Of a stretch of DNA of 64,000 nt, positions 16,763 to 35,329 are shown piece by piece. The stretch comes from a virus: IMG/VR virus record IMGVR_UViG_3300045988_109200, positions 25,243-89,242 of that record; one strand, given 5' to 3'. Below the pieces are notes generated by a model. It did not search any database and had not been told where the DNA came from. It saw nothing but the letters and a program-made list of their open reading frames with translations. Numbering within the stretch: position 1 is the first letter of the stretch; each line of letters starts with the position of its first letter. The position numbers and the translations under genes are program-made.

Positions 16763-17089
16763 ATGAGTGAGAAAAAGGTTTTGGGAGTTATACAGGTTGA
16801 GAACTTTTTGAAGTACATAAGAAAAAAGCGAGTGTGGGTCTGTTTTATTTGCAATGGTGTGGATGTTCACATGATCTGCAAAAAGATGGACGACATTGGC
16901 GTAGAGACGCATGGGATTGTCAAAGGCATTGGATTTTTTGGAAACGAAAGTCATATTGAGTTGCGGCAAGAATGTCACGAAGTAAGGAGGGTTGAGTTTA
17001 GGCCGGGCGATAAAGAGAAAGCGTATGAGATGATATTCGATAACACCAGCGTGTTCGTATCAGAGAATCCAGAGTTGTACGGGCACTAA
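16763..17089 (+). CDS. hypothetical protein (108 aa)
   Basis: ORF track; own promoter; precedes MazF-like gene. Confidence 0.4.
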   Translation: MSEKKVLGVIQVENFLKYIRKKRVWVCFICNGVDVHMICKKMDDIGVETHGIVKGIGFFGNESHIELRQECHEVRRVEFRPGDKEKAYEMIFDNTSVFVSENPELYGH

Positions 17090-17108: not shown

Positions 17109-17137
17109 TTGACTTCTGTAAAGGTATCCTGTATAAT
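17109..17137 (+). promoter_or_regulatory. consensus sigma70 promoter TTGACT-17-TATAAT, overlapping a 21-bp conserved motif copy in minus orientation
   Basis: perfect spacing and hexamers; spacer/-10 is GTATCCTGTATAATATAG. Confidence 0.6.
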
Positions 17138-17180: not shown

Positions 17181-17600
17181 ATGGACAACAATATTGACCC
17201 AAAGGTCGGAGAGGTTTGGTTGGTTGATCTATCCAATGCGACAGGTCATCAGCAGCGCGGTATTCGACCGTTCGTTGTGACGAGCAACAATAAGCGCAAC
17301 TTCTTTAGTCCAACAATTAAAGGGAATCCGTTGTCTTCCAGAATATACAAGCGCTCTCCGGTTCATGTTCTACTCTCAAAGGAAGATTGTGATTTCCTAG
17401 AGGTTGATAGTATCGTTCTATGTGAAGAGACTGATACACTTAACAAAGGACAGTTCATTAAAAAACTTGGTGTCTTGTCGGAGCGTCAGATGAATATGAT
17501 CGCAATGGCAAGATGCAAGGATGAACCGTTTTTGCTTGCAGCATTCCTGAGCGGCGTACAACATACCATGGAATTTCAGAATTTTGCCGCATTTGCTTGA
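17181..17600 (+). CDS. MazF/PemK-family toxin-like endoribonuclease (139 aa)
   Basis: VGEVWLVDLSNATGHQQRGIRPFVVTS N-terminus matches the PemK/MazF signature. Confidence 0.7.
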   Translation: MDNNIDPKVGEVWLVDLSNATGHQQRGIRPFVVTSNNKRNFFSPTIKGNPLSSRIYKRSPVHVLLSKEDCDFLEVDSIVLCEETDTLNKGQFIKKLGVLSERQMNMIAMARCKDEPFLLAAFLSGVQHTMEFQNFAAFA

Positions 17601-17653: not shown

Positions 17654-18580
17654 ATGCTTACTGAAGAAAAAATCAAAGCTTTTGCCGAAAAGTATTCTGA
17701 TAGAAGCGGTGAGTTTGTTGCATCGACGATGCGTCACGTCATGGATTACGAGGCCGAGCGTGGGTATGAGTTGTTTGACTTCACAAAAGATGATTTCGTA
17801 AAGATGTTTGCCAAATATAATTGGGTGAATTCGAGTCGTTCGTTTAAAAATGTGAAGTCAATAATCACAGGCTACATCAAAAGTGAAAACGAAACAAGCA
17901 TGTATGATCTGGCTGACTTTTCAGAGAGCGATGTAAGCGCAGATGATATGTACAATGACAGTTATTTTGCGTCGGTTGACGAATTTGTTGACTTCTTAAA
18001 TAAGTACGAAGAGCCATATCAGATTCGTATGAACGTAATTGCTGTTTTGTACTGGATTGGTCTTACTTCCGATGAGATTTCTAATCTAACAATTAACGAT
18101 GTGGATTTTGAATCTAATACCGTTCTTGATAAGACTGATGTTGACGCAAGGTTAATGGATATTATCAAGCAATGTTACGAGATGAAACAGTATGAAGCCC
18201 CCAATAAGAGCGGTTATAGAACATTTTATGTCATGAATGGCGATTATATCCTACGCAAAACGAAGGATAAACCCGGTGTAAACAGTGATCCAAAGACGTC
18301 TATAATTTCAATTCATGTCTATTTTTCGAGGTTGAACGATATCCTCGAAAAAAGGCATCATTCAAAAACCTTAGATCAAAGATATTTAGCCAGAAATTGT
18401 GAGTATATCAAGGTTTATAACTACTGTAAAACTCATCCAAAATTTAATCTTGCAGAACTTAGTTTCGGAAATGGTAAAGGTCCTCTTGCGGACATTATCG
18501 GAAGAAAGTGCAGTAAAGTTGCCTATCTTAGTTTCCGGCAAGGATATAAAGGTTGGGTTGAATATTTCCATGAAAATTAA
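17654..18580 (+). CDS. hypothetical protein, possibly degenerate tyrosine-recombinase-like fold (308 aa)
   Basis: ORF track; LYWIGLTSDEISNLTINDVDF segment resembles recombinase box I, but no clear HxxR/Y. Confidence 0.45.
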   Translation: MLTEEKIKAFAEKYSDRSGEFVASTMRHVMDYEAERGYELFDFTKDDFVKMFAKYNWVNSSRSFKNVKSIITGYIKSENETSMYDLADFSESDVSADDMYNDSYFASVDEFVDFLNKYEEPYQIRMNVIAVLYWIGLTSDEISNLTINDVDFESNTVLDKTDVDARLMDIIKQCYEMKQYEAPNKSGYRTFYVMNGDYILRKTKDKPGVNSDPKTSIISIHVYFSRLNDILEKRHHSKTLDQRYLARNCEYIKVYNYCKTHPKFNLAELSFGNGKGPLADIIGRKCSKVAYLSFRQGYKGWVEYFHEN

Positions 18581-18584
18581 AAAC

Positions 18585-18608
18585 AGGGGGCTTCGGCCCC
18601 TTCATTTT
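18585..18608 (+). terminator. rho-independent terminator (GGGGGC-UUCG-GCCCCU stem-loop plus T tract)
   Basis: perfect GC stem with UUCG tetraloop followed by tcatttt. Confidence 0.6.
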
Positions 18609-18636: not shown

Positions 18637-18651
18637 CTATTAGAAAGGGAG

Positions 18652-20871
18652 ATGCAGATGAGAACACTTTTACTGTTCCGTGGAGCACCCGGTTGCGGGA
18701 AGTCCACCTATATTAAAGAGCATAATCTTGAGCAGTACGTATTGAGTGCTGATACACTTCGCCTTATGTGCCAGAGCGCACAGGAAACACCTGATGGGCA
18801 GATGGAGATTTCTCAGCAGAATGATGATGTTGTATGGGAGATGCTTTTCAAACTGCTTGAGGTGCGGATGAGCCATGGCGAGTTTACTGTGATTGATGCA
18901 ACGAATTCCAAGACGGTCGAAATGAATTATTATAAGAATCTTGCAAAACAGTATCGTTATCGGATGTATGTTATTGATATGACGGACCTTCCGATCGAGG
19001 AATGCAAACGAAGAAACGCTCAGAGAGAATGGCTAAAGCGAGTTCCTGAAGCGGCTATTGATAAGATGTACGCTCGGTTTGCTACTCAAAAAGTTCCTTC
19101 TGGCGTGACAGTTCTTCCTTCTACTACGGATGTGATGTCCGATTTGAACTACTGCCCGAATGACTTTAACCAGTGGAAAAAGATACATATCATCGGTGAT
19201 ATTCATGGCTGCTATACCTGCTTGAGTGAATACCTTGGTGAGATGAAGGACGACGAGCTTTATATCTTCGTTGGTGATTATCTCGATCGTGGCATCGAAA
19301 ACGTTGAGGTATTCAAGTTCTTGTGTGATGTTGTAAATAACAACCGCAAGAATGTGATCCTTTTGGAAGGGAACCACGAGCATTGGCTGAACAAGTGGGG
19401 GCATGATAAACCGGTTCAAAGTGAAGAGTTTGCAAACTACACTCGTCCGCAGCTCTTTAAAGCCGGTATTGACAAGAACACTGCTCGTAAGATCTATTCC
19501 AGAGTCGGCCAGTGTGTCTACTTTGAGTATGATGGTAAGCGGTATTTCGTAAGTCACGGTGGTCTGAGCTATCTTCCTTATTTTCTTCCGTTCGTGTCTG
19601 CGGATCAGATGATTAAAGGCGTAGGCCGCTATCCTGATATACTGACCGTGGCTGAGTCTTGGGAAAAGTCGATGCCGGATAGCTATATTCAGATCTTCGG
19701 CCATCGAAATGTACAGGATGTTCCTATTGATATGGGTCATCGGTGCTACAATCTTGAAGGCAAAATCGAGTTTGGTGGATATCTTCGTTGTGTGGAGCTT
19801 GAACACGGTCAGCCTATCAAATGCGTAGAAACCAAGAATGATGTATTCCGAAAAGAGGAGCCAAAGACTGAAACTGCCGTTGAAATGAAAACTGAGTTCG
19901 ATAACGCAGAACTTGTTAGTAAGATGCGTCAAAGCAAATATGTGTTTGAGAAGCGATTCGGAGATATTTCTTCTTTCAACTTCTCTCGTGAAGCATTTTA
20001 TAAGAAGCACTGGGATGAGGTTTCTACCAAAGCAAGAGGGTTGTTCATTAACACAAAGACGAATAAGATTGTAGCTCGAAGCTATGATAAGTTCTTTGCG
20101 GTTGATGAGCGGAATGAAACGAGAATTGGAAACCTACAGAACACTTTGAAGTTCCCGGTGACTGCATATCTAAAAGAGAACGGATTTCTTGGTATCATTT
20201 CGTATGATGCAGAACAGGATGGTCTGTTCATTGCAAGTAAATCCACTCCTGATGGGCCTTTTGCAGATATGTTCCGAAAGATTCTCATGGATACGACTTC
20301 TGATGAAGATCGTAAGAATCTGAAAGAAGTTGCAAAAGAGAATGGCTCCATCATCTTCGAGGTGATTGATCCTGTGAATGATGCACATATCATCGAATAT
20401 AAGAAACCGCACATTGTTTTGCTGGATATTATTGCAAATGATATGAATTTCAGTGTAATGGATTATGATGATTTGAAGCGTGTAGCCGAGAAGTGTCATC
20501 TGCAGATTAAGGAGAAGGTTAAAACCTTTGAGAACTGGAGTGAATTCTATCCTTGGTACGAAGAAGTCATGAACGAGAACTATCTGCATCATGGTTTTGA
20601 ACACGTTGAAGGCTTTGTTTTGCGAGACAGCAATAATTTCATGTTTAAGCTGAAGCTTCCGTATTATAAGCACTGGAAGTTCTTGCGTGGTGTCATGCAG
20701 AGCGTTCAAAAACGTGGCTATTATGAAAATACCGCAAAGTTGTTTACTGCCGAGGATAACCTGTTCTATGGTTGGATGCGTGAACAACGAGAGAAAGATC
20801 AAGAGTCTTTCTGCAAGAAGGGTATTATTCAGCTGCGGAATGAGTTCTACGCAAGTCAGCAGAAGAGCTAA
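18652..20871 (+). CDS. Pnkp-like trifunctional RNA end-healing/sealing enzyme (739 aa)
   Basis: N-terminal GAPGCGKST Walker A; central GDIHG/GDYLDRG/GNHE calcineurin-type phosphoesterase motifs; C-terminal region with a KxxG lysine motif, proposed ligase-like (assumption). Confidence 0.65.
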   Translation: MQMRTLLLFRGAPGCGKSTYIKEHNLEQYVLSADTLRLMCQSAQETPDGQMEISQQNDDVVWEMLFKLLEVRMSHGEFTVIDATNSKTVEMNYYKNLAKQYRYRMYVIDMTDLPIEECKRRNAQREWLKRVPEAAIDKMYARFATQKVPSGVTVLPSTTDVMSDLNYCPNDFNQWKKIHIIGDIHGCYTCLSEYLGEMKDDELYIFVGDYLDRGIENVEVFKFLCDVVNNNRKNVILLEGNHEHWLNKWGHDKPVQSEEFANYTRPQLFKAGIDKNTARKIYSRVGQCVYFEYDGKRYFVSHGGLSYLPYFLPFVSADQMIKGVGRYPDILTVAESWEKSMPDSYIQIFGHRNVQDVPIDMGHRCYNLEGKIEFGGYLRCVELEHGQPIKCVETKNDVFRKEEPKTETAVEMKTEFDNAELVSKMRQSKYVFEKRFGDISSFNFSREAFYKKHWDEVSTKARGLFINTKTNKIVARSYDKFFAVDERNETRIGNLQNTLKFPVTAYLKENGFLGIISYDAEQDGLFIASKSTPDGPFADMFRKILMDTTSDEDRKNLKEVAKENGSIIFEVIDPVNDAHIIEYKKPHIVLLDIIANDMNFSVMDYDDLKRVAEKCHLQIKEKVKTFENWSEFYPWYEEVMNENYLHHGFEHVEGFVLRDSNNFMFKLKLPYYKHWKFLRGVMQSVQKRGYYENTAKLFTAEDNLFYGWMREQREKDQESFCKKGIIQLRNEFYASQQKS

Positions 20872-20900
20872 ATTAAAAAATAGACATTTTATCGTGATTT

Positions 20901-20919
20901 TCGTTAAAATAATTAACGA
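20901..20919. repeat. perfect palindrome TCGTTAA-N5-TTAACGA flanked by direct ATCGTGAT repeats
   Basis: seen directly; TTCGTTAAA recurs at 21091 immediately before the HNH start. Confidence 0.5.
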
Positions 20920-20990
20920 AGTATCGTGATATTTCTTCCTCCGAAAATGCCCTGCGCGGGGCTGACAGCCGGGAAAGACCGGCAATATAT

Positions 20991-21075
20991 GCCAAGGTGC
21001 TGCAAATGGGAGACAGGGCGAGCCCAAACCTCGCTGTGGAAACACATGCGGTTTCGAATACCGTCCTTGGCACCA
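20991..21075 (+). tRNA. tRNA-Leu(CAA)-like, type II, CCA encoded, C33 unusual
   Basis: acceptor GCCAAGG/CCTTGGC; T arm GCGGT-TTCGAAT-ACCGT; anticodon stem GCGAG/CTCGC with loop CCCAAAC; 13-nt variable hairpin. Confidence 0.5.
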
Positions 21076-21100
21076 AAATTTAAAAACAATTTCGTTAAAT

Positions 21101-22024
21101 ATGGGAGGTAAGGTTACGAAAAAGATTGATAAGTTTACAAAAGAAGAAATTGAACAAGCTTTTAAAGAAAGCAACAACTGGGCAATGGTTGCAGAGAAAC
21201 TCGGTTATAGTAAGTTTGGAGGAAGTTCTAGGGATGTAATTCAATCTTATGCGAATGAAAATAATATTGATACTTCTCATTTTACAGGACAGGGCTGGAG
21301 CAAGGGGAAGGTTGATCTGACTCGATTTCGTAAAGGCGTTCCATTCAGTAATCTTCGTGAGTCTCTTTTGAATATACGGCAACATCAATGTGAGAGATGT
21401 AAAAATACCGAATGGTTCGGGAAGGAGATCCCGTTAGAAGTTCATCATATTGATGGAAATCGATTAAACAACGAACTTAATAACCTTCAACTCTTGTGTC
21501 CCAATTGCCACGCACAAACAGAGAACTGGAAAGGTAAAAATGTTAATCATAAGAAGGAAATAACCGACGAACAGCTTATAGAAGCTTTAAAAAATTCATT
21601 GTCAATTAGCGAAGCACTTAGAAAAGTTGGCGTAAATTACATGGCGAAAAGTTGGTTTGAAAAAGCAAGGCAACTTATGCTTGAGAACAATATTGATTTT
21701 CCTAAAAGAGAAGTAGTACAAAAAGAAAAGAAAGAACGTAAAAAACGTACAATAAAATATTGCTCCAAATGTGGGAAGGAACTTTACAAAAGAACAAAAG
21801 GAAATTTGTGTAGGGAGTGCCTTTCTAATCTCCCATACAGAAGATATCACGAGTTACCAGAAAAAGAACAGCTTGAGAAAGAAATCTATAAAATGTCCTT
21901 CTCAAAAATTGGTGATAAGTATGGGGTAACTGGAAATTCTATCCGTAAATGGTGCAAACATTATGGACTTCCTTATAGAAGAGCTGATATAGATAAAATA
22001 TTAACTTCTTGTAGCAATACATAA
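21101..22024 (+). CDS. HNH endonuclease (307 aa)
   Basis: EVHHIDGNRLNN...LLCPNCH HNH motif; C-terminal repeats with CxxC pairs; sits inside the tRNA array. Confidence 0.7.
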   Translation: MGGKVTKKIDKFTKEEIEQAFKESNNWAMVAEKLGYSKFGGSSRDVIQSYANENNIDTSHFTGQGWSKGKVDLTRFRKGVPFSNLRESLLNIRQHQCERCKNTEWFGKEIPLEVHHIDGNRLNNELNNLQLLCPNCHAQTENWKGKNVNHKKEITDEQLIEALKNSLSISEALRKVGVNYMAKSWFEKARQLMLENNIDFPKREVVQKEKKERKKRTIKYCSKCGKELYKRTKGNLCRECLSNLPYRRYHELPEKEQLEKEIYKMSFSKIGDKYGVTGNSIRKWCKHYGLPYRRADIDKILTSCSNT

Positions 22025-22062
22025 TTTTAATAGATTGAGATGCTAAATCCTCAATCTTATAT

Positions 22063-22145
22063 GCTACCATGGCGAAATAGGCAGTACGCTTCGGTCTTAA
22101 AAACCGATGTCGAAAGACGTGCGGGTTCGACCCCCGCTGGTAGCA
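22063..22145 (+). tRNA. tRNA-Leu(UAA), type II
   Basis: acceptor GCTACCA/TGGTAGC; anticodon arm TCGGT-CTTAAAA-ACCGA; long variable arm; T arm GCGGG-TTCGACC-CCCGC. Confidence 0.6.
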
Positions 22146-22152
22146 CTAATAT

Positions 22153-22228
22153 CCGGGTGTAGCTCAGTTGGTATCGCACCTGTTTTGGGAACAGGGGACC
22201 GCAAGTTCAAATCTTGTCGCTCAGGCCA
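22153..22228 (+). tRNA. tRNA-Pro(UGG)-like with weak D stem and an acceptor mismatch
   Basis: anticodon arm CCTGT-TTTGGGA-ACAGG; T arm GCAAG-TTCAAAT-CTTGT; CCA encoded; acceptor 6/7 pairs including wobbles. Confidence 0.4.
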
Positions 22229-22255
22229 GTCCGAAAGGGTATGTAGAATTTTCAT

Positions 22256-22312
22256 TCACATTATTCCCAGCTCTCTGGAAACGGAGCAGTGTGACGTAGT
22301 AAGCTGGGTATA
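22256..22312 (+). repeat. tRNA-array spacer element copy A (structured hairpin CCCAGCT...AGCTGGG)
   Basis: about 55 nt conserved with copies at 22525 and 22748. Confidence 0.5.
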
Positions 22313-22315
22313 TGA

Positions 22316-22386
22316 TGCGCCATCGCCAAGCGGTAAGGCAGAGGACTTTGACTCCTCCATCACAGGTTCGACCCCTGTTGGCGCAA
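22316..22386 (+). tRNA. tRNA-Gln(UUG) with U1:A72
   Basis: acceptor TGCGCCA/TGGCGCA; anticodon arm GAGGA-CTTTGAC-TCCTC; T arm ACAGG-TTCGACC-CCTGT. Confidence 0.6.
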
Positions 22387-22391
22387 TTTAT

Positions 22392-22473
22392 GCGGATATG
22401 GTGGAGTGGCAGACACGCCAGATTTAGGATCTGGTGCTTCGGCGTGTGGGTTCGATGCCCACTATCCGCACCA
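22392..22473 (+). tRNA. tRNA-Leu(UAG), type II, CCA encoded
   Basis: acceptor GCGGATA/TATCCGC; anticodon arm CCAGA-TTTAGGA-TCTGG; variable hairpin; T arm GTGGG-TTCGATG-CCCAC. Confidence 0.65.
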
Positions 22474-22524
22474 CGGTCATAGAATGGTTGCGTACCGTTT
22501 TGTTGATCTCCTTTGACTGCCACT

Positions 22525-22580
22525 ATTATTCCCGGCTCGCCAGTGATGGTGCAGTAGTGCTTTGTAAGCTGGGTGATTGT
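22525..22580 (+). repeat. tRNA-array spacer element copy B
   Basis: TATTCCCGGCTCGCC...GTGCAGTAGTGCTTTGTAAGCTGGG. Confidence 0.5.
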
Positions 22581-22656
22581 GCAGCTATGGTGTTAGTGGT
22601 TAGCACATCTGCCTTCCAAGCAGAGAGGGCGGGTTCGAGTCCCGTTGGTTGCTCCA
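22581..22656 (+). tRNA. tRNA-Gly(UCC), CCA encoded
   Basis: acceptor GCAGCTA/TGGTTGC (two GU pairs); anticodon arm TCTGC-CTTCCAA-GCAGA; T arm GCGGG-TTCGAGT-CCCGT. Confidence 0.6.
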
Positions 22657-22747
22657 ATCTCGTATGGGTAGGATTTTTAGCGGTCAAATCCGGCTGCGCC
22701 TGTGCGAGATACCACCCCGAAATGGGCTAACGAAATTTTTCATGTGC

Positions 22748-22803
22748 GTTATTCTCGGCTCGCCCGAAAGAGTGCAGCGTGCCTTTGTAAGCCGAGTATC
22801 CCA
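22748..22803 (+). repeat. tRNA-array spacer element copy C (compensatory stem CTCGGCT/AGCCGAG)
   Basis: TTATTCTCGGCTCGCC...GTGCAGCGTGCCTTTGTAAGCCGAG. Confidence 0.5.
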
Positions 22804-22837
22804 GCCTAGTGATGCCAGTTGCTAGGTTGGTTCTTAT

Positions 22838-22913
22838 GCGACTGTAGTTCAATTGGTAGAGCGTCAGATTTCCAATCTGAATGTTGCGAGATCGTCCCCC
22901 GTCAGTCGCTCCA
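22838..22913 (+). tRNA. tRNA-Gly(UCC)-like second copy, noncanonical T loop, CCA encoded
   Basis: acceptor GCGACTG/CAGTCGC; D arm GTTC-AATTGGTA-GAGC; anticodon arm TCAGA-TTTCCAA-TCTGA. Confidence 0.5.
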
Positions 22914-23044
22914 CACGCAGCCCCTGACGCTGCACCGGTTGCTCAGAGCCGAAAGGAACCTATATGTTACGACATGGTTGCCAAGAGTGATCATATTGGA
23001 ACGCGACGTAGCTTTGATAGTAGGAATTAAATTCTGAGGTATAC

Positions 23045-23113
23045 GGCTGGATAGCTTAATGGTAAAAGCGCTCGGAAACACCGAGAGATGAGGTTCGATC
23101 CCTCCACTGGCAT
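23045..23113 (+). ncRNA. tRNA-like element (pseudo-tRNA?)
   Basis: canonical D arm TAGCTTAATGGTAAAAGC and T arm GGTTCGATCC, but a 5-bp stem with 5-nt loop replaces the anticodon arm and no complementary acceptor 3' strand. Confidence 0.3.
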
Positions 23114-23140
23114 CGCGCCGACGAAAGTTGGCGTTTATAT

Positions 23141-23216
23141 GGAATAGTAGCTCAGCTGGTTAGAGCCGACAACTTATAATTGTCAGACACGAGTTCAAAT
23201 CTCGACTATTCCACCA
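23141..23216 (+). tRNA. tRNA-Ile(UAU), CCA encoded
   Basis: acceptor GGAATAG/CTATTCC; D arm GCTC-AGCTGGTTA-GAGC; anticodon arm GACAA-CTTATAA-TTGTC. Confidence 0.6.
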
Positions 23217-23242
23217 GCCCGATAGGGCATACATAAAATCTG

Positions 23243-24116
23243 CTAGAACTTTTGTTTTAAATTATGTAAGGATGGATTTTCTGCCAAGCAAATTAGTGTC
23301 TGGTCTTGCAACGTAGAAATCGTTGCGCTCAATTCAGTTTGAACTAGAGCGCCTTTACCGCCACCTTCACATCCAGAGCGGATTTTTAGAGTGTAGGCTG
23401 CAGGTTCTGCGAATCGAGCCGAAGTCTCTCGATGGTCTGACTCCAATACTCGTCCAATTCCTTCTCTTCCAGACCTTCTTGTTCCTTCACTTTCTGCACC
23501 ACCTGTGACAGAGTTCCTGGATTCCACCATTCGATCATATCCAGCAACGCTTGCTTCAGGAGTTCGGGCAAAGGTTTTCCACGCCGGGATGCTCTCACAA
23601 GAATCCCCTGACATGCTCGTGCGCTCAAATAGAATTTCTGAGGCACGTTGTCCTCCAAAATCCATGACAAGCGCGATTCTCTGGCGACGCTGGGCGACTC
23701 CCCAGTATTTAGCGTCGAACAATCTCCATGCAATAGACCATCCATTACCGGAAATCGCTCCAGATTTTGCCCACTTCCCGTTCTTCCCTGAAGGTCGAGG
23801 AATTGAAACGTCTGGCTCGACAATGCGTGCAAATCTTTCCAACACACATCTGAAGTCTTCACCTTTGCTTGAGCTGAAAGCTCCTCTGACATTTTCCCAG
23901 ATTGCGAATTTTGGATATTCTCCATTAGTGGCCTCCCTCATTTCTGTAATCACACGAATCATTTCAAGGAACAATCCAGAGCGTTCACCAGCCAAACCTT
24001 CACGTTTACCGGCCTGACTCAAATCTTGGCATGGACTGCCTCCTGTGATACAGGAAACCGGTTCAATCTGCCACCCATGAAGTTGTGTAATATCTCCGTA
24101 ATGCTTCAGTTTTCAT
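23243..24116 (-). pseudogene. C5 cytosine DNA methyltransferase C-terminal half (motifs IV PCQ, VI ENV, VIII QRRQR, part of TRD)
   Basis: translation contains GGSPCQDLSQAG, ENVRG, QRRQR; SD AAAAGGAGGA plus ATG at 24116 lies in the +1 frame relative to the MTase frame at an A4 run (24110-24113); no motif I-III upstream. Confidence 0.6.
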
Positions 24117-24127
24117 TCCTCCTTTTC

Positions 24128-24148
24128 GTATCCTGTATTATATAGCTA
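24128..24148 (-). promoter_or_regulatory. conserved 21-bp motif copy (minus orientation), about 10 nt upstream of the SD of the minus-strand MTase fragment
   Basis: GTATCCTGTATTATATAGCTA on the + strand. Confidence 0.5.
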
Positions 24149-24229
24149 AAACTCAGAAAATGAGCGAAAAAATAATAGACGTATCAACGTCATGTTATTT
24201 CGTCGCCTATAAAACAAAAGATTTCGCCG

Positions 24230-24829
24230 GTGGTATTTGAGAGTCACAGTCAGGACGCTCGATACACTCAGCAGGGTGATACAAGTCCGACTTGTACTGC
24301 TCAGTGGGGAACGGGCGGTAATAATATGCCGCTGGTCGTTGAAAAGAAAGCCTTTGCAATGCAACGCATTGGTGAGTACAAGGAAAGTGAACACGCCAGC
24401 ACGATGAAATCTCGTGATTATAAGGACGCTACTGACCTGATTGCAGAGAAGGAAACGAAGAATCTACGATGGATTGTTCGCCGCTTGACTCCTTTGGAGG
24501 ATGAACGGTTACAGGGTTTCCCTGACGGATGGACTGATATCGGTGACTGGATTGATGAGAACGAAAAGAAGCATAAAACTTCTGACGCAGTTCGTTATAA
24601 GGCACTCGGCAATTCAATCGCATTACCGCAATGGTATTGGATTTTTCAGAAGATGAAACCGTATATCGGTGAGAATCCTACTCTTGGTAGCCTCTTCGAT
24701 GGGATCGGCGGCTTTCCGTTAGTATTTCAAAGCACATATGGTGAAGGTACTGCCATTTGGGGGTCAGAAATTGATAGCTTTTGCGTTGCAGTAACTAAGA
24801 AGCATTTTCCAGAAAAGCAAAGAGGATAA
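24230..24829 (+). CDS. C5 cytosine DNA methyltransferase fragment with permuted order (TRD tail, motifs IX and X, then motifs I and II), 199 aa
   Basis: RRLTPLEDERLQGFPDGWT (IX), YKALGNSIALP (X), then LGSLFDGIGGF (I) and SEIDSFCVAV..HFP (II); GTG start, no clean ATG. Confidence 0.55.
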   Translation: MVFESHSQDARYTQQGDTSPTCTAQWGTGGNNMPLVVEKKAFAMQRIGEYKESEHASTMKSRDYKDATDLIAEKETKNLRWIVRRLTPLEDERLQGFPDGWTDIGDWIDENEKKHKTSDAVRYKALGNSIALPQWYWIFQKMKPYIGENPTLGSLFDGIGGFPLVFQSTYGEGTAIWGSEIDSFCVAVTKKHFPEKQRG

Positions 24830-34567: not shown

Positions 34568-35329
34568 ATGGTTTACATTACAGGCGATATTCATGGCGAT
34601 TTTAATCGTCTCTTAGAGTTAAATAAATTTTGCATTAAACACAATCTTGGAAAGAATGATTGGATTATCTGTCTTGGTGATGTTGGTCTAAACTATTATG
34701 GTAAGGATAACATCAACGAATGGAGAGTTAAGACCATTGCTGCGGACATCCCTGCGAATTTATTCTGTATTCATGGAAATCACGAACGCCGCCCGTCTCG
34801 TAAGGATGGTTATAGGACAAAGGAAATCAGTGGAGATATTTGTGGTAAGGTGTGGCATGATTCACATTATCCCAATCAGTATTTTGCTATTGATGGCGAA
34901 GTTTACCAGATTCTTGCTGATAGGGAAATTCTGAACTGTCTTGTTTGCGGCGGAGCATATTCTGTAGATAAATATTATCGGTTGGAACGTGGATGGAACT
35001 GGTGGCCGGACGAACAGCCTAATGAGAAGACTAAGAAAAAGATCTGGAATATTACACATGACCCTCAAATCGATGATATTGATGTTATGCTCACGCATAC
35101 CTGTCCATTTCGGTTCATTCCAACTGAATTGTTTATCGGTGGTATTGATCAAAGCACAGTAGACCAGTCAACTGAAATATTCTTTGATAATATATACGAA
35201 TGTTATCCTAACGATTGTAAACCATTCTGGTACTTCGGCCATTTCCATGGCAACAAGTACACCGATGACTATGTGATGCTTTTCGACGATATTATTAAGT
35301 TTGGAGATAAGGTGAATACGAATGAGTGA
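34568..35329 (+). CDS. calcineurin-like metallophosphoesterase (lambda-PPase-like), 253 aa
   Basis: GDIHGDF, LGDVG, HGNHE motifs. Confidence 0.6.
   Translation: MVYITGDIHGDFNRLLELNKFCIKHNLGKNDWIICLGDVGLNYYGKDNINEWRVKTIAADIPANLFCIHGNHERRPSRKDGYRTKEISGDICGKVWHDSHYPNQYFAIDGEVYQILADREILNCLVCGGAYSVDKYYRLERGWNWWPDEQPNEKTKKKIWNITHDPQIDDIDVMLTHTCPFRFIPTELFIGGIDQSTVDQSTEIFFDNIYECYPNDCKPFWYFGHFHGNKYTDDYVMLFDDIIKFGDKVNTNE

What the first reader, a model, noticed from the sequence alone, without database searches (positions are those of the whole stretch)
18652..23216. Three-domain Pnkp-like RNA repair enzyme encoded next to the element's own tRNA array
The 739-aa protein combines a P-loop polynucleotide-kinase module (GAPGCGKST), a binuclear metallophosphoesterase module (GDIHG, GDYLDRG, GNHE) and a C-terminal KxxG region that I tentatively read as a ligase-like adenylyltransferase; whether bacterial Pnkp enzymes (normally paired with Hen1) have this architecture is from memory and needs checking. 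Here it stands alone, immediately upstream of a cluster of about nine tRNA genes: Leu x3, Gln, Gly x2, Pro-like, Ile-UAU. A self-contained tRNA end-healing and sealing enzyme plus replacement tRNAs is the classic phage answer to host anticodon-nuclease defence (PrrC- or RloC-type), but as a single polypeptide this would be an atypical, possibly new, anti-defence tRNA repair cassette.
Basis: partly seen in the sequence, partly recalled or inferred. Interest (0 to 1): 0.7.

Follow-up and report, generated by a model that had tools for sequence, protein, structure and literature searches.

The report
Phage heal-and-seal RNA repair enzyme
A large gut phage encodes one protein that should phosphorylate, dephosphorylate and re-join broken RNA, placed just before the phage's own tRNA genes; the protein family is real and intact but already common in phage genomes, so this is a new member of a known, biochemically untested kind.

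Summary
ORF 18652-20871 (739 aa; probable start 18658) has three intact catalytic domains and is followed by eight tRNA genes plus one degenerate tRNA-like element.

The kinase and binuclear phosphoesterase are closest to the healing modules of bacterial Pnkp. The ligase is not the Hen1-dependent Pnkp type (Rnl4). It is an Rnl1-superfamily ligase whose whole length, C-terminal module included, matches fungal tRNA ligase Trl1-LIG (Rnl6). The bacterial Pnkp equivalog model fails (81.8 bits against a cut-off of 750).

The architecture is not rare. It matches PHROG 8238 end to end, occurs in 113 deposited phage genomes (Twort-like, SPbeta-like, Brochothrix A9), and has thousands of metagenomic and prophage relatives. 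I found no paper that characterises it biochemically.

The ligase-tRNA adjacency is conserved in 35 of 35 scanned members of this ~135-kb gut phage clade. It is absent in most distant relatives, so the "cassette" is lineage-specific.

The most likely function is repair of 2',3'-cyclic-phosphate/5'-OH RNA breaks through a 2'-OH route, probably tRNA breaks made by host ribotoxins.

Side findings: a highly conserved MazF-like endoribonuclease two genes upstream, and a covarying pseudoknot RNA repeated between the tRNAs.

The parts
18652..20871 (+). Gene for the trifunctional RNA repair enzyme (739 aa as listed; probable true start at ATG 18658, 737 aa)
   Evidence: ORF list. RBS spacing. P0001 at 100% identity is 737 aa. 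PHROG 8238 matched end to end. AF2 model with mean pLDDT 89.3.
18652..19146 (+). Polynucleotide 5'-kinase domain (residues about 1-165): P-loop G11-T19, Asp34, Arg37, lid R121/N122/R125
19180..19851 (+). Binuclear metallophosphoesterase domain (residues about 177-400): D183, H185, D209, D212-R213, N241-H242, H302, H351
19858..19896 (+). Disordered linker (residues 403-415) between the healing and sealing halves
   Evidence: pLDDT below 50 for residues 403-415 in the AF2 model.
19897..20868 (+). ATP-dependent RNA ligase domain (residues 416-739): motif I K508, motif III E570, motif IV E653-G-F-V, motif V K666/K668. Trl1-type helical C-terminal module with Y672, W675, K676, R679 and GIIQLRNEF.
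20881..20910 (+). Promoter-like site (TAGACA-18-TAAAAT) between the ligase stop codon and the first tRNA
   Evidence: Consensus scan. The number of sites in the region is not above the shuffled expectation, so this is weak.
20991..21075 (+). tRNA-Leu(CAA), class II, with C instead of U at position 33
   Evidence: ARAGORN. Not reported by Rfam. The loop reads CCCAAAC in 15 of 80 clade copies; the others have U33.
21101..22024 (+). HNH homing-endonuclease ORF inserted in the tRNA array (a mobile insertion, not part of the repair function)
   Evidence: Pfam HNH and HNH_3. PHROG 10822. Present in only 8 of 67 clade loci.
22063..22146 (+). tRNA-Leu(UAA)
   Evidence: ARAGORN. Rfam 54.7 bits.
22153..22228 (+). 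tRNA-Pro(UGG)
   Evidence: ARAGORN. Rfam 43.8 bits.
22256..22308 (+). Pseudoknotted spacer RNA element, copy 1; ends 7 nt before tRNA-Gln
   Evidence: Repeat family D2. nhmmer and covariation analysis.
22316..22386 (+). tRNA-Gln(UUG)
   Evidence: ARAGORN. Rfam 60.4 bits.
22392..22473 (+). tRNA-Leu(UAG)
   Evidence: ARAGORN. Rfam 56.6 bits.
22521..22573 (+). Pseudoknotted spacer RNA element, copy 2; ends 7 nt before tRNA-Gly
22581..22656 (+). tRNA-Gly(UCC), copy 1
   Evidence: ARAGORN. Rfam 53.6 bits.
22744..22796 (+). Pseudoknotted spacer RNA element, copy 3; ends 41 nt before the second tRNA-Gly
22838..22913 (+). tRNA-Gly(UCC), copy 2
   Evidence: ARAGORN. Rfam 56.0 bits.
23046..23112 (+). 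Degenerate tRNA-like element (anticodon loop of 5 nt in the MFE fold)
   Evidence: Rfam tRNA at 28.2 bits, just below the gathering score of 29. Fold. Not called by ARAGORN.
23141..23216 (+). tRNA-Ile(UAU)
   Evidence: ARAGORN. Rfam 64.5 bits. The positional equivalent has anticodon CAU in 68 clade copies and UAU in 5.
17181..17600 (+). MazF/PemK-like endoribonuclease gene, a conserved neighbour two genes upstream (context only; a functional link is not shown)
   Evidence: Pfam PemK_toxin at 2e-19. PHROG 1936. Present in 67 of 67 clade loci at a median 98.6% identity. Aligns with S. aureus MazF and B. subtilis EndoA; catalytic Arg retained.
17654..18580 (+). 308-aa protein with a tyrosine-recombinase-like N-terminal core-binding domain; a conserved neighbour between the MazF-like gene and the ligase gene
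   Evidence: Pfam MrpR_N_CB at 6e-4. PHROG 5830 at 2e-10. Present in 67 of 67 clade loci. The same trio occurs in L088/L089 and L085.
18585..18601 (+). Terminator-like hairpin between the upstream operon and the ligase gene
   Evidence: Consensus scan. Sequence.

Best explanation
The gene encodes a stand-alone, trifunctional RNA heal-and-seal enzyme of a large temperate-type phage of anaerobic Firmicutes.

Proposed mechanism. The steps are inferred from homology to characterised enzymes; none was assayed.
1. The N-terminal P-loop kinase transfers the gamma-phosphate of an NTP to a 5'-OH RNA end.
2. The lambda-phosphatase/CthPnkp-type binuclear metallophosphoesterase opens the 2',3'-cyclic phosphate and removes the resulting monoester, leaving a 2'-OH,3'-OH end.
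3. The C-terminal ligase is adenylylated on Lys508, transfers AMP to the 5'-phosphate, and seals the break.

The ligase has the Trl1-type C-terminal module, so no Hen1 partner is expected. Trl1's key 2'-phosphate-binding arginine is not conserved, so sealing is predicted to follow the T4 Rnl1-like 2'-OH route and not the fungal 2'-PO4 route.

The most likely physiological substrates are tRNAs (possibly also other translation RNAs) nicked by host ribotoxins during infection. In this phage clade the gene lies directly upstream of an array of U34-rich tRNAs that could replace or supplement damaged host tRNAs. Repair and replacement would then be two complementary answers to the same attack.
For: Domain architecture and intact active sites:
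- Pfam hits for all three domains, and 35-sequence invariance of all catalytic residues.
- Alignments to CthPnk, lambda phosphatase and Trl1-LIG.
- A confident AF2 model, pLDDT 89.3.

The ligase is autonomous in type:
- The only PDB sequence hits are Trl1-LIG, aligned through the CTD, and T4 Rnl1. No Rnl4 appears.
- No Hen1 among the neighbours.

The 2'-OH route:
- His185, the equivalent of CthPnkp His189, is invariant.
- Wild-type CthPnkp yields 2'-OH ends that T4 Rnl1 seals. The H189D mutant yields 2'-PO4 ends that yeast ligase seals (PMC1920235).
- The Trl1 2'-P pocket is R334/R337 (PMC12440814; PMC6379707). Here the R334 position is Asn in 19 of 35 sequences and Lys/Arg in 14 of 35.

RNA-repair role:
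- In relative L087 the gene is immediately followed by RlaP, the RNA-ligase-associated nucleotidyltransferase, with Thg1 nearby. Such neighbourhoods are discussed as RNA repair in PMC7824862.
- Precedent: T4 Pnkp plus Rnl1 repair PrrC-cut tRNA-Lys, and phage tRNAs counter tRNA-targeting defences (PMC10264068; PMC11555353 and PMC11464382, listed).

Clade-level linkage to tRNAs:
- 35 of 35 loci carry the same ordered array immediately 3' of the gene.
Against: - No activity has been measured for any member of this family that I could find.
- The tRNA linkage is lineage-specific. It is absent in 4 cultured-phage relatives. It is absent downstream in 69 of 69 diverse loci, although four or five of them have tRNA clusters upstream.
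- No anticodon nuclease, trigger or host is identified.
- The prediction about 2'-OH versus 2'-PO4 rests on one alignment column and on analogy with CthPnkp.
- K676 and R679 are invariant basic residues that could still form a phosphate pocket.
Confidence: 0.6

Rival explanations
1. The enzyme repairs or finishes RNA ends made by the phage's own machinery, not by host defence. [quoted passage not shown] Another is cleavage at the pseudoknotted RNA elements between the tRNA genes, if those are processing sites or small ribozymes.
For: - The MazF-like gene is present in 67 of 67 clade loci at a median 98.6% identity, the best-conserved neighbour.
- Its catalytic Arg is retained.
- The trio of MazF-like gene, ~310-aa protein and ligase recurs in relatives at 51-54% identity: L085 and L088/L089.
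- The spacer element is a covarying pseudoknot in 1-3 copies per clade locus, and two of the three window copies end 7 nt before a tRNA 5' end.
- RNA ligase genes are reported as 140-fold enriched in phages that carry tRNA-associated theta ribozymes (PMC10879173).
Against: - The MazF-like gene is upstream in only 1 of 62 diverse family loci, so the link is not family-wide.
- A terminator-like hairpin separates the MazF operon from the ligase gene.
- The spacer element has no Rfam match and lacks the L3/P1.1 features of HDV-like ribozymes. Nothing shows that it cleaves.
- RNase P and host exonucleases suffice for ordinary tRNA maturation.
Confidence: 0.12
2. The enzyme is a general RNA repair or recycling enzyme (for mRNA, rRNA or any nicked RNA). 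Its position next to the tRNA array is a historical accident of genome organisation. The array serves ordinary translational supply.
For: - Most relatives have no adjacent array.
- Three or more tRNAs within about 6 kb occur in only about 5 of 80 diverse loci (L096, L129, L155, L158, L163). That is roughly what chance placement in a ~130-kb phage genome would give (my estimate).
- A separate promoter-like site precedes the array.
- The variably present HNH insertion shows the junction is a plastic region.
Against: - The gene order is fixed in 35 of 35 clade members even though the spacers and the HNH content vary.
- In independent lineages (L155, L158, L163) tRNA clusters abut the gene on the other side.
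- Rnl1-family and Trl1 ligases with C-terminal modules are tRNA-directed in the characterised cases (PMC6379707).
- The array's anticodons match codons that are minor in this window's 24 sampled genes: ATA 5%, TTA 7%, CTA 8%. That does not fit simple matching of phage codon preference. Late genes and the host were not available for comparison.
Confidence: 0.22
3. The protein's main role is not RNA repair. It might act as a protein phosphatase (NinI/lambda-phosphatase-like) or as a virion assembly factor, as T4 Rnl1 (gp63) moonlights in tail-fibre attachment.
For: PHROG hits to 'NinI-like serine-threonine phosphatase' (phrog_246) and 'RNA ligase and tail fiber protein attachment catalyst' (phrog_562).
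Against: - Those hits cover single domains and are far weaker than the end-to-end match to phrog_8238.
- Strict conservation of all three nucleic-acid-end-modifying active sites in one chain is hard to explain by either alternative.
- The gene lies in the early/replication arm, not among structural genes.
Confidence: 0.04

Closest known systems
Bacterial Pnkp of the Pnkp/Hen1 RNA repair system (Clostridium thermocellum Pnkp; TIGR04075)
   Same: - Same domain order: kinase, binuclear metallophosphoesterase, ligase.
- The same catalytic residues are present, including the His189 equivalent.
   Different: - The ligase module belongs to a different clade. No sequence or fold match to the Rnl4-type Pnkp ligase appears.
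- No Hen1 partner gene.
- It fails the equivalog model: 81.8 bits against 750, covering residues 5-305 only.
- It is shorter, 739 aa against a profile of 851 positions.
Fungal/plant tRNA ligase Trl1, LIG domain (Rnl6 clade; PDB 6n0t, 6n67, 8rbj, 9qw7)
   Same: - Best sequence and structure match for residues about 436-733, including the helical C-terminal module and a shared GII(Q/K)LRN(E/D)F motif.
- Motif I, III, IV and V residues are conserved.
   Different: - The domain order and healing chemistry differ. Trl1 is LIG-KIN-CPD with a 2H cyclic phosphodiesterase that leaves a 2'-PO4. Here the order is KIN-MPE-LIG with a phosphomonoesterase-capable domain.
- The Trl1 RxxR 2'-PO4 site (R334, R337) is K/N-x-W-K here, and the R334 position is not conserved.
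- About 24-26% identity only.
Phage T4 Pnkp + Rnl1 tRNA repair pathway
   Same: - Same overall logic: a 5'-kinase, a 3'-phosphatase and an Rnl1-superfamily ligase encoded by a phage.
- The predicted end chemistry (2'-OH,3'-OH plus 5'-PO4) is that of T4 Rnl1.
   Different: - T4 uses two proteins. Its phosphatase is a HAD/DxDxT acylphosphatase, not a metallophosphoesterase.
PHROG 8238 / 'RNA ligase' of Twort-like Staphylococcus phages, SPbeta-like Bacillus phages and Brochothrix phage A9 (e.g. Twort ORF008, A9 gp147)
   Same: Same full-length three-domain family: profile matched 3-737 to 1-734 of 737 at E 8e-227. 113 phage records cover at least 80% of the protein at 37-44% identity.
   Different: - These homologues are not next to tRNA arrays in the four loci inspected.
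- They are annotated only by homology ('RNA ligase', 'tRNA ligase', 'hypothetical protein').
- I found no biochemical study of any of them.

Membership tests
Bacterial Pnkp (Pnkp/Hen1 system) | N-terminal P-loop polynucleotide 5'-kinase of the CthPnk type | tested here: met
Bacterial Pnkp (Pnkp/Hen1 system) | Central binuclear metallophosphoesterase (lambda-phosphatase-like 2',3'-phosphatase) | tested here: met
Bacterial Pnkp (Pnkp/Hen1 system) | C-terminal Rnl4-type ligase/adenylyltransferase domain | tested here: not met
Bacterial Pnkp (Pnkp/Hen1 system) | Adjacent Hen1 methyltransferase gene that activates the ligase | tested here: not met
   The neighbours are a MazF-like gene, a recombinase-like 308-aa ORF, tRNAs, an HNH gene and C5 DNA methylase fragments. 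No Hen1 family appears among the annotated neighbours of relatives. About 40 of the window's ORFs were scanned, not all of them.
Bacterial Pnkp (Pnkp/Hen1 system) | Score above the curated cut-off of NCBIfam equivalog TIGR04075 | tested here: not met
   81.8 bits against a cut-off of 750; match limited to residues 5-305.
Rnl1-superfamily ATP-dependent RNA ligases (Pfam PF09511 RNA_lig_T4_1) | Profile match above gathering score, with nucleotidyltransferase motifs I (KxxG), III, IV and V | tested here: met
   141.7 bits against 28.3, profile positions 1-227 of 227. K508, E570, E653-G-F-V, K666 and K668 are invariant.
T4 Rnl1 clade proper | T4 Rnl1-type C-terminal tRNA-specificity domain | tested here: not met
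Trl1-LIG / Rnl6 clade | Trl1-type all-helical C-terminal module appended to the Rnl1-like N-subdomain and NTase core | tested here: met
Trl1-LIG / Rnl6 clade | RxxR 2'-PO4-binding motif after motif V (CtTrl1 R334, R337) | tested here: not met
   The aligned residues are K673-H-W-K676. Position 673 is N in 19, K in 9, R in 5 and other in 2 of 35 sequences. Position 676 is K in 35 of 35. Motif definition from PMC6379707 and PMC12440814.
Trl1-LIG / Rnl6 clade | Requirement or preference for a 2'-PO4 at the 3'-OH end | not testable with these tools
   Needs ligation assays with defined 2'-PO4 and 2'-OH substrates.
Trifunctional Trl1 tRNA ligase (fungi/plants) | LIG-KIN-CPD architecture with a 2H cyclic phosphodiesterase | tested here: not met
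   The order here is KIN-metallophosphoesterase-LIG, with no 2H/CPD domain.
T4 Pnkp family | Kinase fused to a HAD (DxDxT) 3'-phosphatase | tested here: not met
   The phosphatase is a calcineurin-like metallophosphoesterase. The kinase similarity to T4 Pnk is weaker than to CthPnk.
PHROG 8238 (phage 'RNA ligase', three-domain) | End-to-end profile match | tested here: met
   E 8.1e-227; residues 3-737 match profile positions 1-734 of 737.
RNA heal-and-seal enzyme (functional class) | 5'-kinase, 2',3'-phosphoesterase and ligase activities on RNA | not testable with these tools
   Only inferred from conserved active sites and folds.

The most novel reading that the evidence does not exclude
In this phage clade the repair enzyme may be one part of a self-contained RNA cut-and-rejoin module that is not purely a shield against host nucleases. 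The other parts would be the near-invariant MazF-like endoribonuclease two genes upstream and/or the covarying pseudoknot RNAs that sit just 5' of several phage tRNAs. These would create 2',3'-cyclic-phosphate/5'-OH ends that the enzyme heals, and perhaps seals. The purpose could be to mature the phage's own tRNA transcripts, or to reverse phage-inflicted cleavage of host RNAs. The pseudoknot element would then be a new small processing motif or ribozyme. The enzyme would also be a prokaryotic-virus representative of the Trl1 (Rnl6) ligase clade.
Probability: 0.1. Interest if true: 0.75.

Novelty: new member of a known kind. Interest (0 to 1): 0.35.

Why it matters
The family combines the healing half of bacterial Pnkp with a ligase whose nearest solved relatives are fungal tRNA ligases. 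It is abundant in phages and prophages of Firmicutes, including well-known Staphylococcus and Bacillus phages. Yet it appears never to have been assayed.

Characterising one member would do three things:
- Test whether a Trl1-type ligase can work without a 2'-phosphate.
- Give a single-protein RNA repair tool.
- Clarify where the eukaryotic tRNA ligase fold came from.

tRNA-cleaving defences (PrrC, retron effectors, PARIS, Schlafens, Cas13a, OLD) are now known to be widespread. A common phage-borne repair enzyme is therefore a plausible and under-studied counter-defence.

For this particular window, though, the finding is an ordinary member of that family. The specific 'cassette' with tRNAs is a lineage-level arrangement.

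Tried and rejected
1. Membership in bacterial Pnkp: rejected by the TIGR04075 score and by the ligase type.

2. Family-wide linkage of the ligase gene to tRNA arrays: tested on 4 cultured phages, 5 metagenomic loci and 80 genome loci, and not found.

3. Family-wide linkage to the MazF-like gene: 1 of 62 loci. It is restricted to this clade and two related lineages.

4. A tRNA-splicing role, suggested by the Trl1-like ligase and by unusually long tRNA-Gln and tRNA-Met calls in relatives: rejected. ARAGORN in intron mode shows long variable arms and no anticodon-loop introns.

5. Spacer elements as HDV-like/theta ribozymes:
   - The strand order is the same as in minimal drz (PMC10879173).
   - But there is no Rfam hit, the hairpin loop is a GNRA-like tetraloop and not a 7-8-nt L3, P1 is only 5 bp, and the element sits before a tRNA 5' end and not at a tRNA 3' end.
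   - So it is not filed as one.
   - My first automatic pairing picked an alternative partner (UGGUG) for some copies, so the 'best complement' statistics are biased upward. The listed compensatory helix types are the reliable part.

6. Simple codon-preference matching as the reason for the array: the cognate codons are minor in the 24 window ORFs sampled. Late genes and host genomes were not available, so this stays open.

7. Burroughs & Aravind 2016 (NAR 44:8525), which probably catalogues this architecture, is not held in the library. My statement that no characterisation exists rests on six full-text searches only.

8. The window DNA has no close relative among deposited phage genomes. The relatives are uncultured IMG/VR contigs.

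Full report
WHAT IS THERE

The ORF at 18652-20871 (+) is real and encodes 739 aa. The GGGAG ribosome-binding site lies 6 nt before the second in-frame ATG at 18658. The 100%-identical database representative is 737 aa, and Met3 is invariant in the family. The true start is therefore probably 18658.

Pfam places three domains above their gathering scores: AAA_33 (residues 6-144, 1e-22), Metallophos (177-355, 2.5e-15) and RNA_lig_T4_1 (460-672, 4e-41, full profile).

Downstream, ARAGORN finds eight tRNAs between 20991 and 23216: Leu-CAA, Leu-UAA, Pro-UGG, Gln-UUG, Leu-UAG, two Gly-UCC and Ile-UAU. Rfam confirms seven and adds a sub-threshold tRNA-like element at 23046-23112. A 307-aa HNH endonuclease ORF (21101-22024) interrupts the array after the first tRNA.

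ARE THE ACTIVE SITES INTACT?

I aligned the protein with 34 relatives at 49-62% identity. Every expected catalytic residue is invariant.

- Kinase: G11, G16, K17, D34, R37, R121, N122 and R125. Asp34 and Arg37 align with Asp38 and Arg41 of C. thermocellum Pnk.
- Phosphoesterase: D183, H185, D209, D212, R213, N241, H242, H302 and H351. These are the GDxHG, GDxxDRG, GNHE, HGG and GH motifs of lambda phosphatase.
- Ligase: K508-x-N-G (motif I), E570 (III), E653-G-F-V (IV), K666 and K668 (V).

An AlphaFold2 model built on this alignment is confident (mean pLDDT 89.3). It has one disordered linker, residues 403-415, between the healing half and the ligase.

WHICH FAMILIES DO THE DOMAINS BELONG TO?

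Fold searches give a consistent answer for each domain.

Searched alone against all PDB sequences at E<=10, the ligase domain hits only Trl1-LIG chains and T4 Rnl1. The Trl1-LIG alignments run through residue 317 of 324, so they include the C-terminal module. The T4 Rnl1 alignment covers the core only, residues 45-258. The alignment to Candida glabrata Trl1-LIG even shares the C-terminal GII(Q/K)LRNEF motif.

RNA ligase clades are defined by their C-terminal modules: Rnl1 is T4, Rnl4 is CthPnkp-C with Hen1-N, and Rnl6 is Trl1-LIG (PMC6379707). By that criterion this ligase is Rnl6-like, not Rnl4. The NCBIfam equivalog for bacterial Pnkp scores only 81.8 bits against a cut-off of 750 and covers residues 5-305 only.

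So the protein works like Pnkp in its healing half but is not a Pnkp. It carries a different, autonomous type of ligase. That fits the absence of a Hen1 gene nearby and among the annotated neighbours of relatives.

EXPECTED CHEMISTRY

This section is inference.

Wild-type CthPnkp converts 2',3'-cyclic phosphate ends to 2'-OH,3'-OH ends that T4 Rnl1 seals. Its H189D mutant stops at 2'-PO4, and yeast ligase seals those ends (PMC1920235). Here the equivalent histidine (H185) is invariant.

In Trl1 the preference for 2'-PO4 depends on R334 and R337 in an RxxR motif just after motif V, R334 above all (PMC12440814; PMC6379707). The aligned residues here are K673-H-W-K676. Across the family, position 673 is Asn in 19 of 35 sequences and basic in 14. 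K676 and R679 are invariant.

I therefore predict the T4-like route: kinase, then full dephosphorylation, then sealing of 3'-OH/5'-PO4. My confidence in this is moderate.

HOW COMMON IS IT?

The protein matches PHROG 8238 ('RNA ligase') end to end at 8e-227.

tblastn finds it in 144 deposited phage genomes, 113 of them at full length. These include Alicyclobacillus phage KKP_3916, SPbeta-like Bacillus phages, Staphylococcus phage Twort and many K-like phages, and Brochothrix A9. Identity is 37-44%, and the annotations read 'RNA ligase', 'tRNA ligase' or 'hypothetical protein'.

The large protein collection returns at least 4,695 clusters at E<=1e-10. Nearly all of the best 120 have the same three Pfam domains.

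A scan of species-representative genomes finds more than 360 relatives. The best 80, at 45-51% identity, are almost all from Lachnospiraceae and other Clostridia. Flintibacter locus L085/L096 sits in a phage-gene context, which points to prophages, but I did not check the other loci.

Six full-text searches found no biochemical or genetic study of this fusion. The comparative-genomics paper most likely to list it is not in the library.

This is a known but uncharacterised kind.

WHAT IS THE ELEMENT?

The window carries the following genes:
- a family-B-type DNA polymerase, helicases, RecJ, DnaB and a primase-like protein;
- ATP-dependent DNA ligase;
- anaerobic ribonucleotide reductase with its activase;
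- ThyX, dUTPase and FolD;
- integrases.

This is the replication and nucleotide-metabolism arm of a large temperate-type phage of an anaerobe.

IMG/VR holds more than 80 contigs of 70-139 kb that carry the same protein at 88-100% identity. No deposited phage genome is close at the DNA level.

IS THE TRNA ARRAY PART OF THE SAME DEVICE?

Within the clade, 35 of 35 scanned loci have the array directly 3' of the gene in the same order. The spacers, the number of Gly genes and the HNH insertion all vary (HNH is present in 8 of 67 loci).

Outside the clade the linkage disappears.
- None of four cultured-phage loci has an adjacent array.
- None of the L086-L089 loci has one.
- None of 69 diverse genome loci has three or more tRNAs within 3 kb downstream.
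- A few independent lineages have tRNA clusters just upstream: L155 and L158 with Leu-UAG, Pro-UGG, Gln-UUG and Leu-CAA; L163; and L129.

Other relatives sit in classical RNA-repair company. In L087 the gene overlaps the start of an RlaP gene, with Thg1 8 kb away (compare PMC7824862).

The array's anticodons pair with codons that are minor in the 24 window ORFs I sampled: ATA 5%, TTA 7%, CTA 8%, CCA 17%, GGA 18% and CAA 24%. Simple matching of the phage's own codon preference is not supported by this part of the genome. Most of the tRNAs have U34 and could cover whole codon boxes, which is compatible with replacing depleted host tRNAs. But neither the late genes nor the host was available.

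I conclude that 'repair plus replacement' is a reasonable reading for this clade. It is backed by known precedents (PMC10264068; PMC11555353 and PMC11464382). The physical linkage is a lineage-level feature and is not proof of a functional unit.

OTHER THINGS NEARBY THAT BEAR ON FUNCTION

The MazF-like gene.
- Two genes upstream lies a MazF/PemK-like gene at 17181-17600 (Pfam 2e-19).
- It is present in 67 of 67 clade loci at a median 98.6% identity, higher than the repair enzyme itself at 95.9%.
- It aligns with S. aureus MazF and B. subtilis EndoA. The catalytic Arg is kept and Ser replaces the catalytic Thr.
[quoted passage not shown] Those are the substrates of this enzyme.
- The trio of MazF-like gene, ~310-aa recombinase-like protein and ligase recurs at 51-54% identity in L085 and L088/L089. 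It is found in only 1 of 62 diverse loci.
- A terminator-like hairpin separates it from the ligase gene.

The spacer RNA element.
- The spacers before tRNA-Gln and both tRNA-Gly genes contain a ~53-nt element. It is present in 1-3 copies in 77 clade loci and nowhere else, and it has no Rfam match.
- It forms an H-type pseudoknot with a nested hairpin: P1(5 nt)-UUAUU-P2(7 nt)-C-hairpin-GCAG-P1'-linker-P2'.
- Compensatory changes are abundant. P1 occurs as UCACA/UGUGA, CACUA/UAGUG, UCCUA/UAGGA, GUCAA/UUGAC and GUACG/CGUGC. P2 occurs as CCCAGCU/AGCUGGG, CUUGGCU/AGCCAAG, CUCGGCU/AGCCGAG and CCCGACU/AGUCGGG.
- The strand order is that of minimal HDV-like 'theta' ribozymes, which flank gut-phage tRNAs (PMC10879173). 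But the element lacks their L3/P1.1 features and sits on the 5' side of tRNAs.
- Its function is unknown.

These two features support a low-probability alternative in which the enzyme handles ends made by the phage itself.

VERDICT

The sequence feature is real, and the enzymatic reading is well supported by homology. The specific family assignment should be corrected: Pnkp-type healing modules fused to a Trl1/Rnl6-like ligase, and not a Pnkp.

The architecture is common, so this is a new member of a known, biochemically untested kind. The tRNA 'cassette' is conserved only within this phage clade.

Noticed in passing
window 22256-22308, 22521-22573, 22744-22796 (+): A repeated ~53-nt RNA element in the tRNA spacers. 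It forms a pseudoknot with a nested hairpin and shows many compensatory base changes across 75 unique copies. It occurs in 1-3 copies in 77 clade loci and in none of 85 other loci, and has no Rfam match. The strand order resembles minimal HDV-like (theta) ribozymes, but the loop features and the position relative to tRNAs differ. Function unknown.
   Followed up: partly
window 17181-17600 (+): A MazF/PemK-like endoribonuclease gene with its own strong promoter-like site (17109-17137). It is present in 67 of 67 clade loci at a median 98.6% identity, the best-conserved gene in the neighbourhood. The catalytic Arg is retained. No recognisable antitoxin was found: the 108-aa ORF upstream at 16763-17089 has no family hit.
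   Followed up: partly
window 17654-18580 (+): A 308-aa protein between the MazF-like gene and the ligase gene. It has only a weak tyrosine-recombinase core-binding-domain match (MrpR_N_CB; PHROG 5830 'integrase') and no catalytic-domain hit. It is conserved in 67 of 67 clade loci and travels with the MazF-like gene in L085 and L088/L089.
   Followed up: partly
window 20991-21075 (+): tRNA-Leu(CAA) has C instead of the near-universal U at position 33 (loop CCCAAAC), and Rfam's tRNA model does not report it. The C33 allele occurs in 15 of 80 clade copies; the others have U33.
   Followed up: partly
window 23141-23216 (+) and clade loci: The last tRNA of the array has anticodon UAU (Ile, AUA) here and in 4 other loci, but CAU in 68 loci. 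The two versions are only 73-75% identical, with compensatory anticodon-stem changes. This looks like allele replacement and not a point mutation. The CAU form may be a lysidine-dependent Ile2 tRNA.
   Followed up: partly
L029 11356-11443, L054 10898-10987, L058 11189-11280: Some clade members carry tRNA-Gln(UUG) of 88-90 nt and tRNA-Met/Ile(CAU) of 92 nt with long, class-II-like variable arms and no introns. That shape is unusual for these isoacceptors in bacteria and phages.
   Followed up: partly
window 23046-23112 (+): A degenerate tRNA-like sequence (Rfam 28.2 bits, 0.8 below gathering) with a shortened anticodon loop, lying between the second tRNA-Gly and tRNA-Ile. It may be a decaying tRNA gene.
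   Followed up: no
window 21101-22024 (+): An HNH homing-endonuclease ORF inserted between the first and second tRNA. It is present in only 8 of 67 clade loci (median 57% identity), so it is a mobile, variable insertion.
   Followed up: partly
window 23233-24829: C5 cytosine DNA methyltransferase in pieces on opposite strands. Motifs VI-VIII lie on the minus strand (23243-24022). Motifs IX-X followed by a motif-I-like FDGIGG lie on the plus strand (24230-24829). A 27-nt imperfect inverted repeat flanks the minus-strand piece (23233-23259 and 24210-24236). This may be an invertible segment or a rearranged gene.
   Followed up: partly
L087 10216-11280 and 18121-18226: In a ~213-kb contig, the homologue P0055 is immediately followed by an RlaP (PF10127) nucleotidyltransferase gene, with Thg1-like and YAcAr genes nearby. 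This is a fuller RNA-repair neighbourhood than the one in the window.
   Followed up: no
L091-L167 (17 of the 80 genome loci): A tRNA-Pro(CGG) gene lies 0.1-9 kb downstream of the homologue in many Lachnospiraceae assemblies. It could be a prophage attachment site or a phage-borne tRNA.
   Followed up: no
window, 24 ORFs between 7700 and 63814: The codons that match the array's anticodons are minor in the window's genes (ATA 5%, TTA 7%, CTA 8%, CCA 17%, GGA 18%, CAA 24% of their families; GC3 0.435). The array does not mirror the codon preference of these early and replication genes.
   Followed up: partly
window 34568-35329 (+): A second, separate calcineurin-like metallophosphoesterase ORF (253 aa, Pfam 9e-13) lies in the replication gene block.
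   Followed up: no
window 18647-18660: The RBS spacing and the database representatives indicate that the repair gene starts at ATG 18658 and not at 18652.
   Followed up: yes
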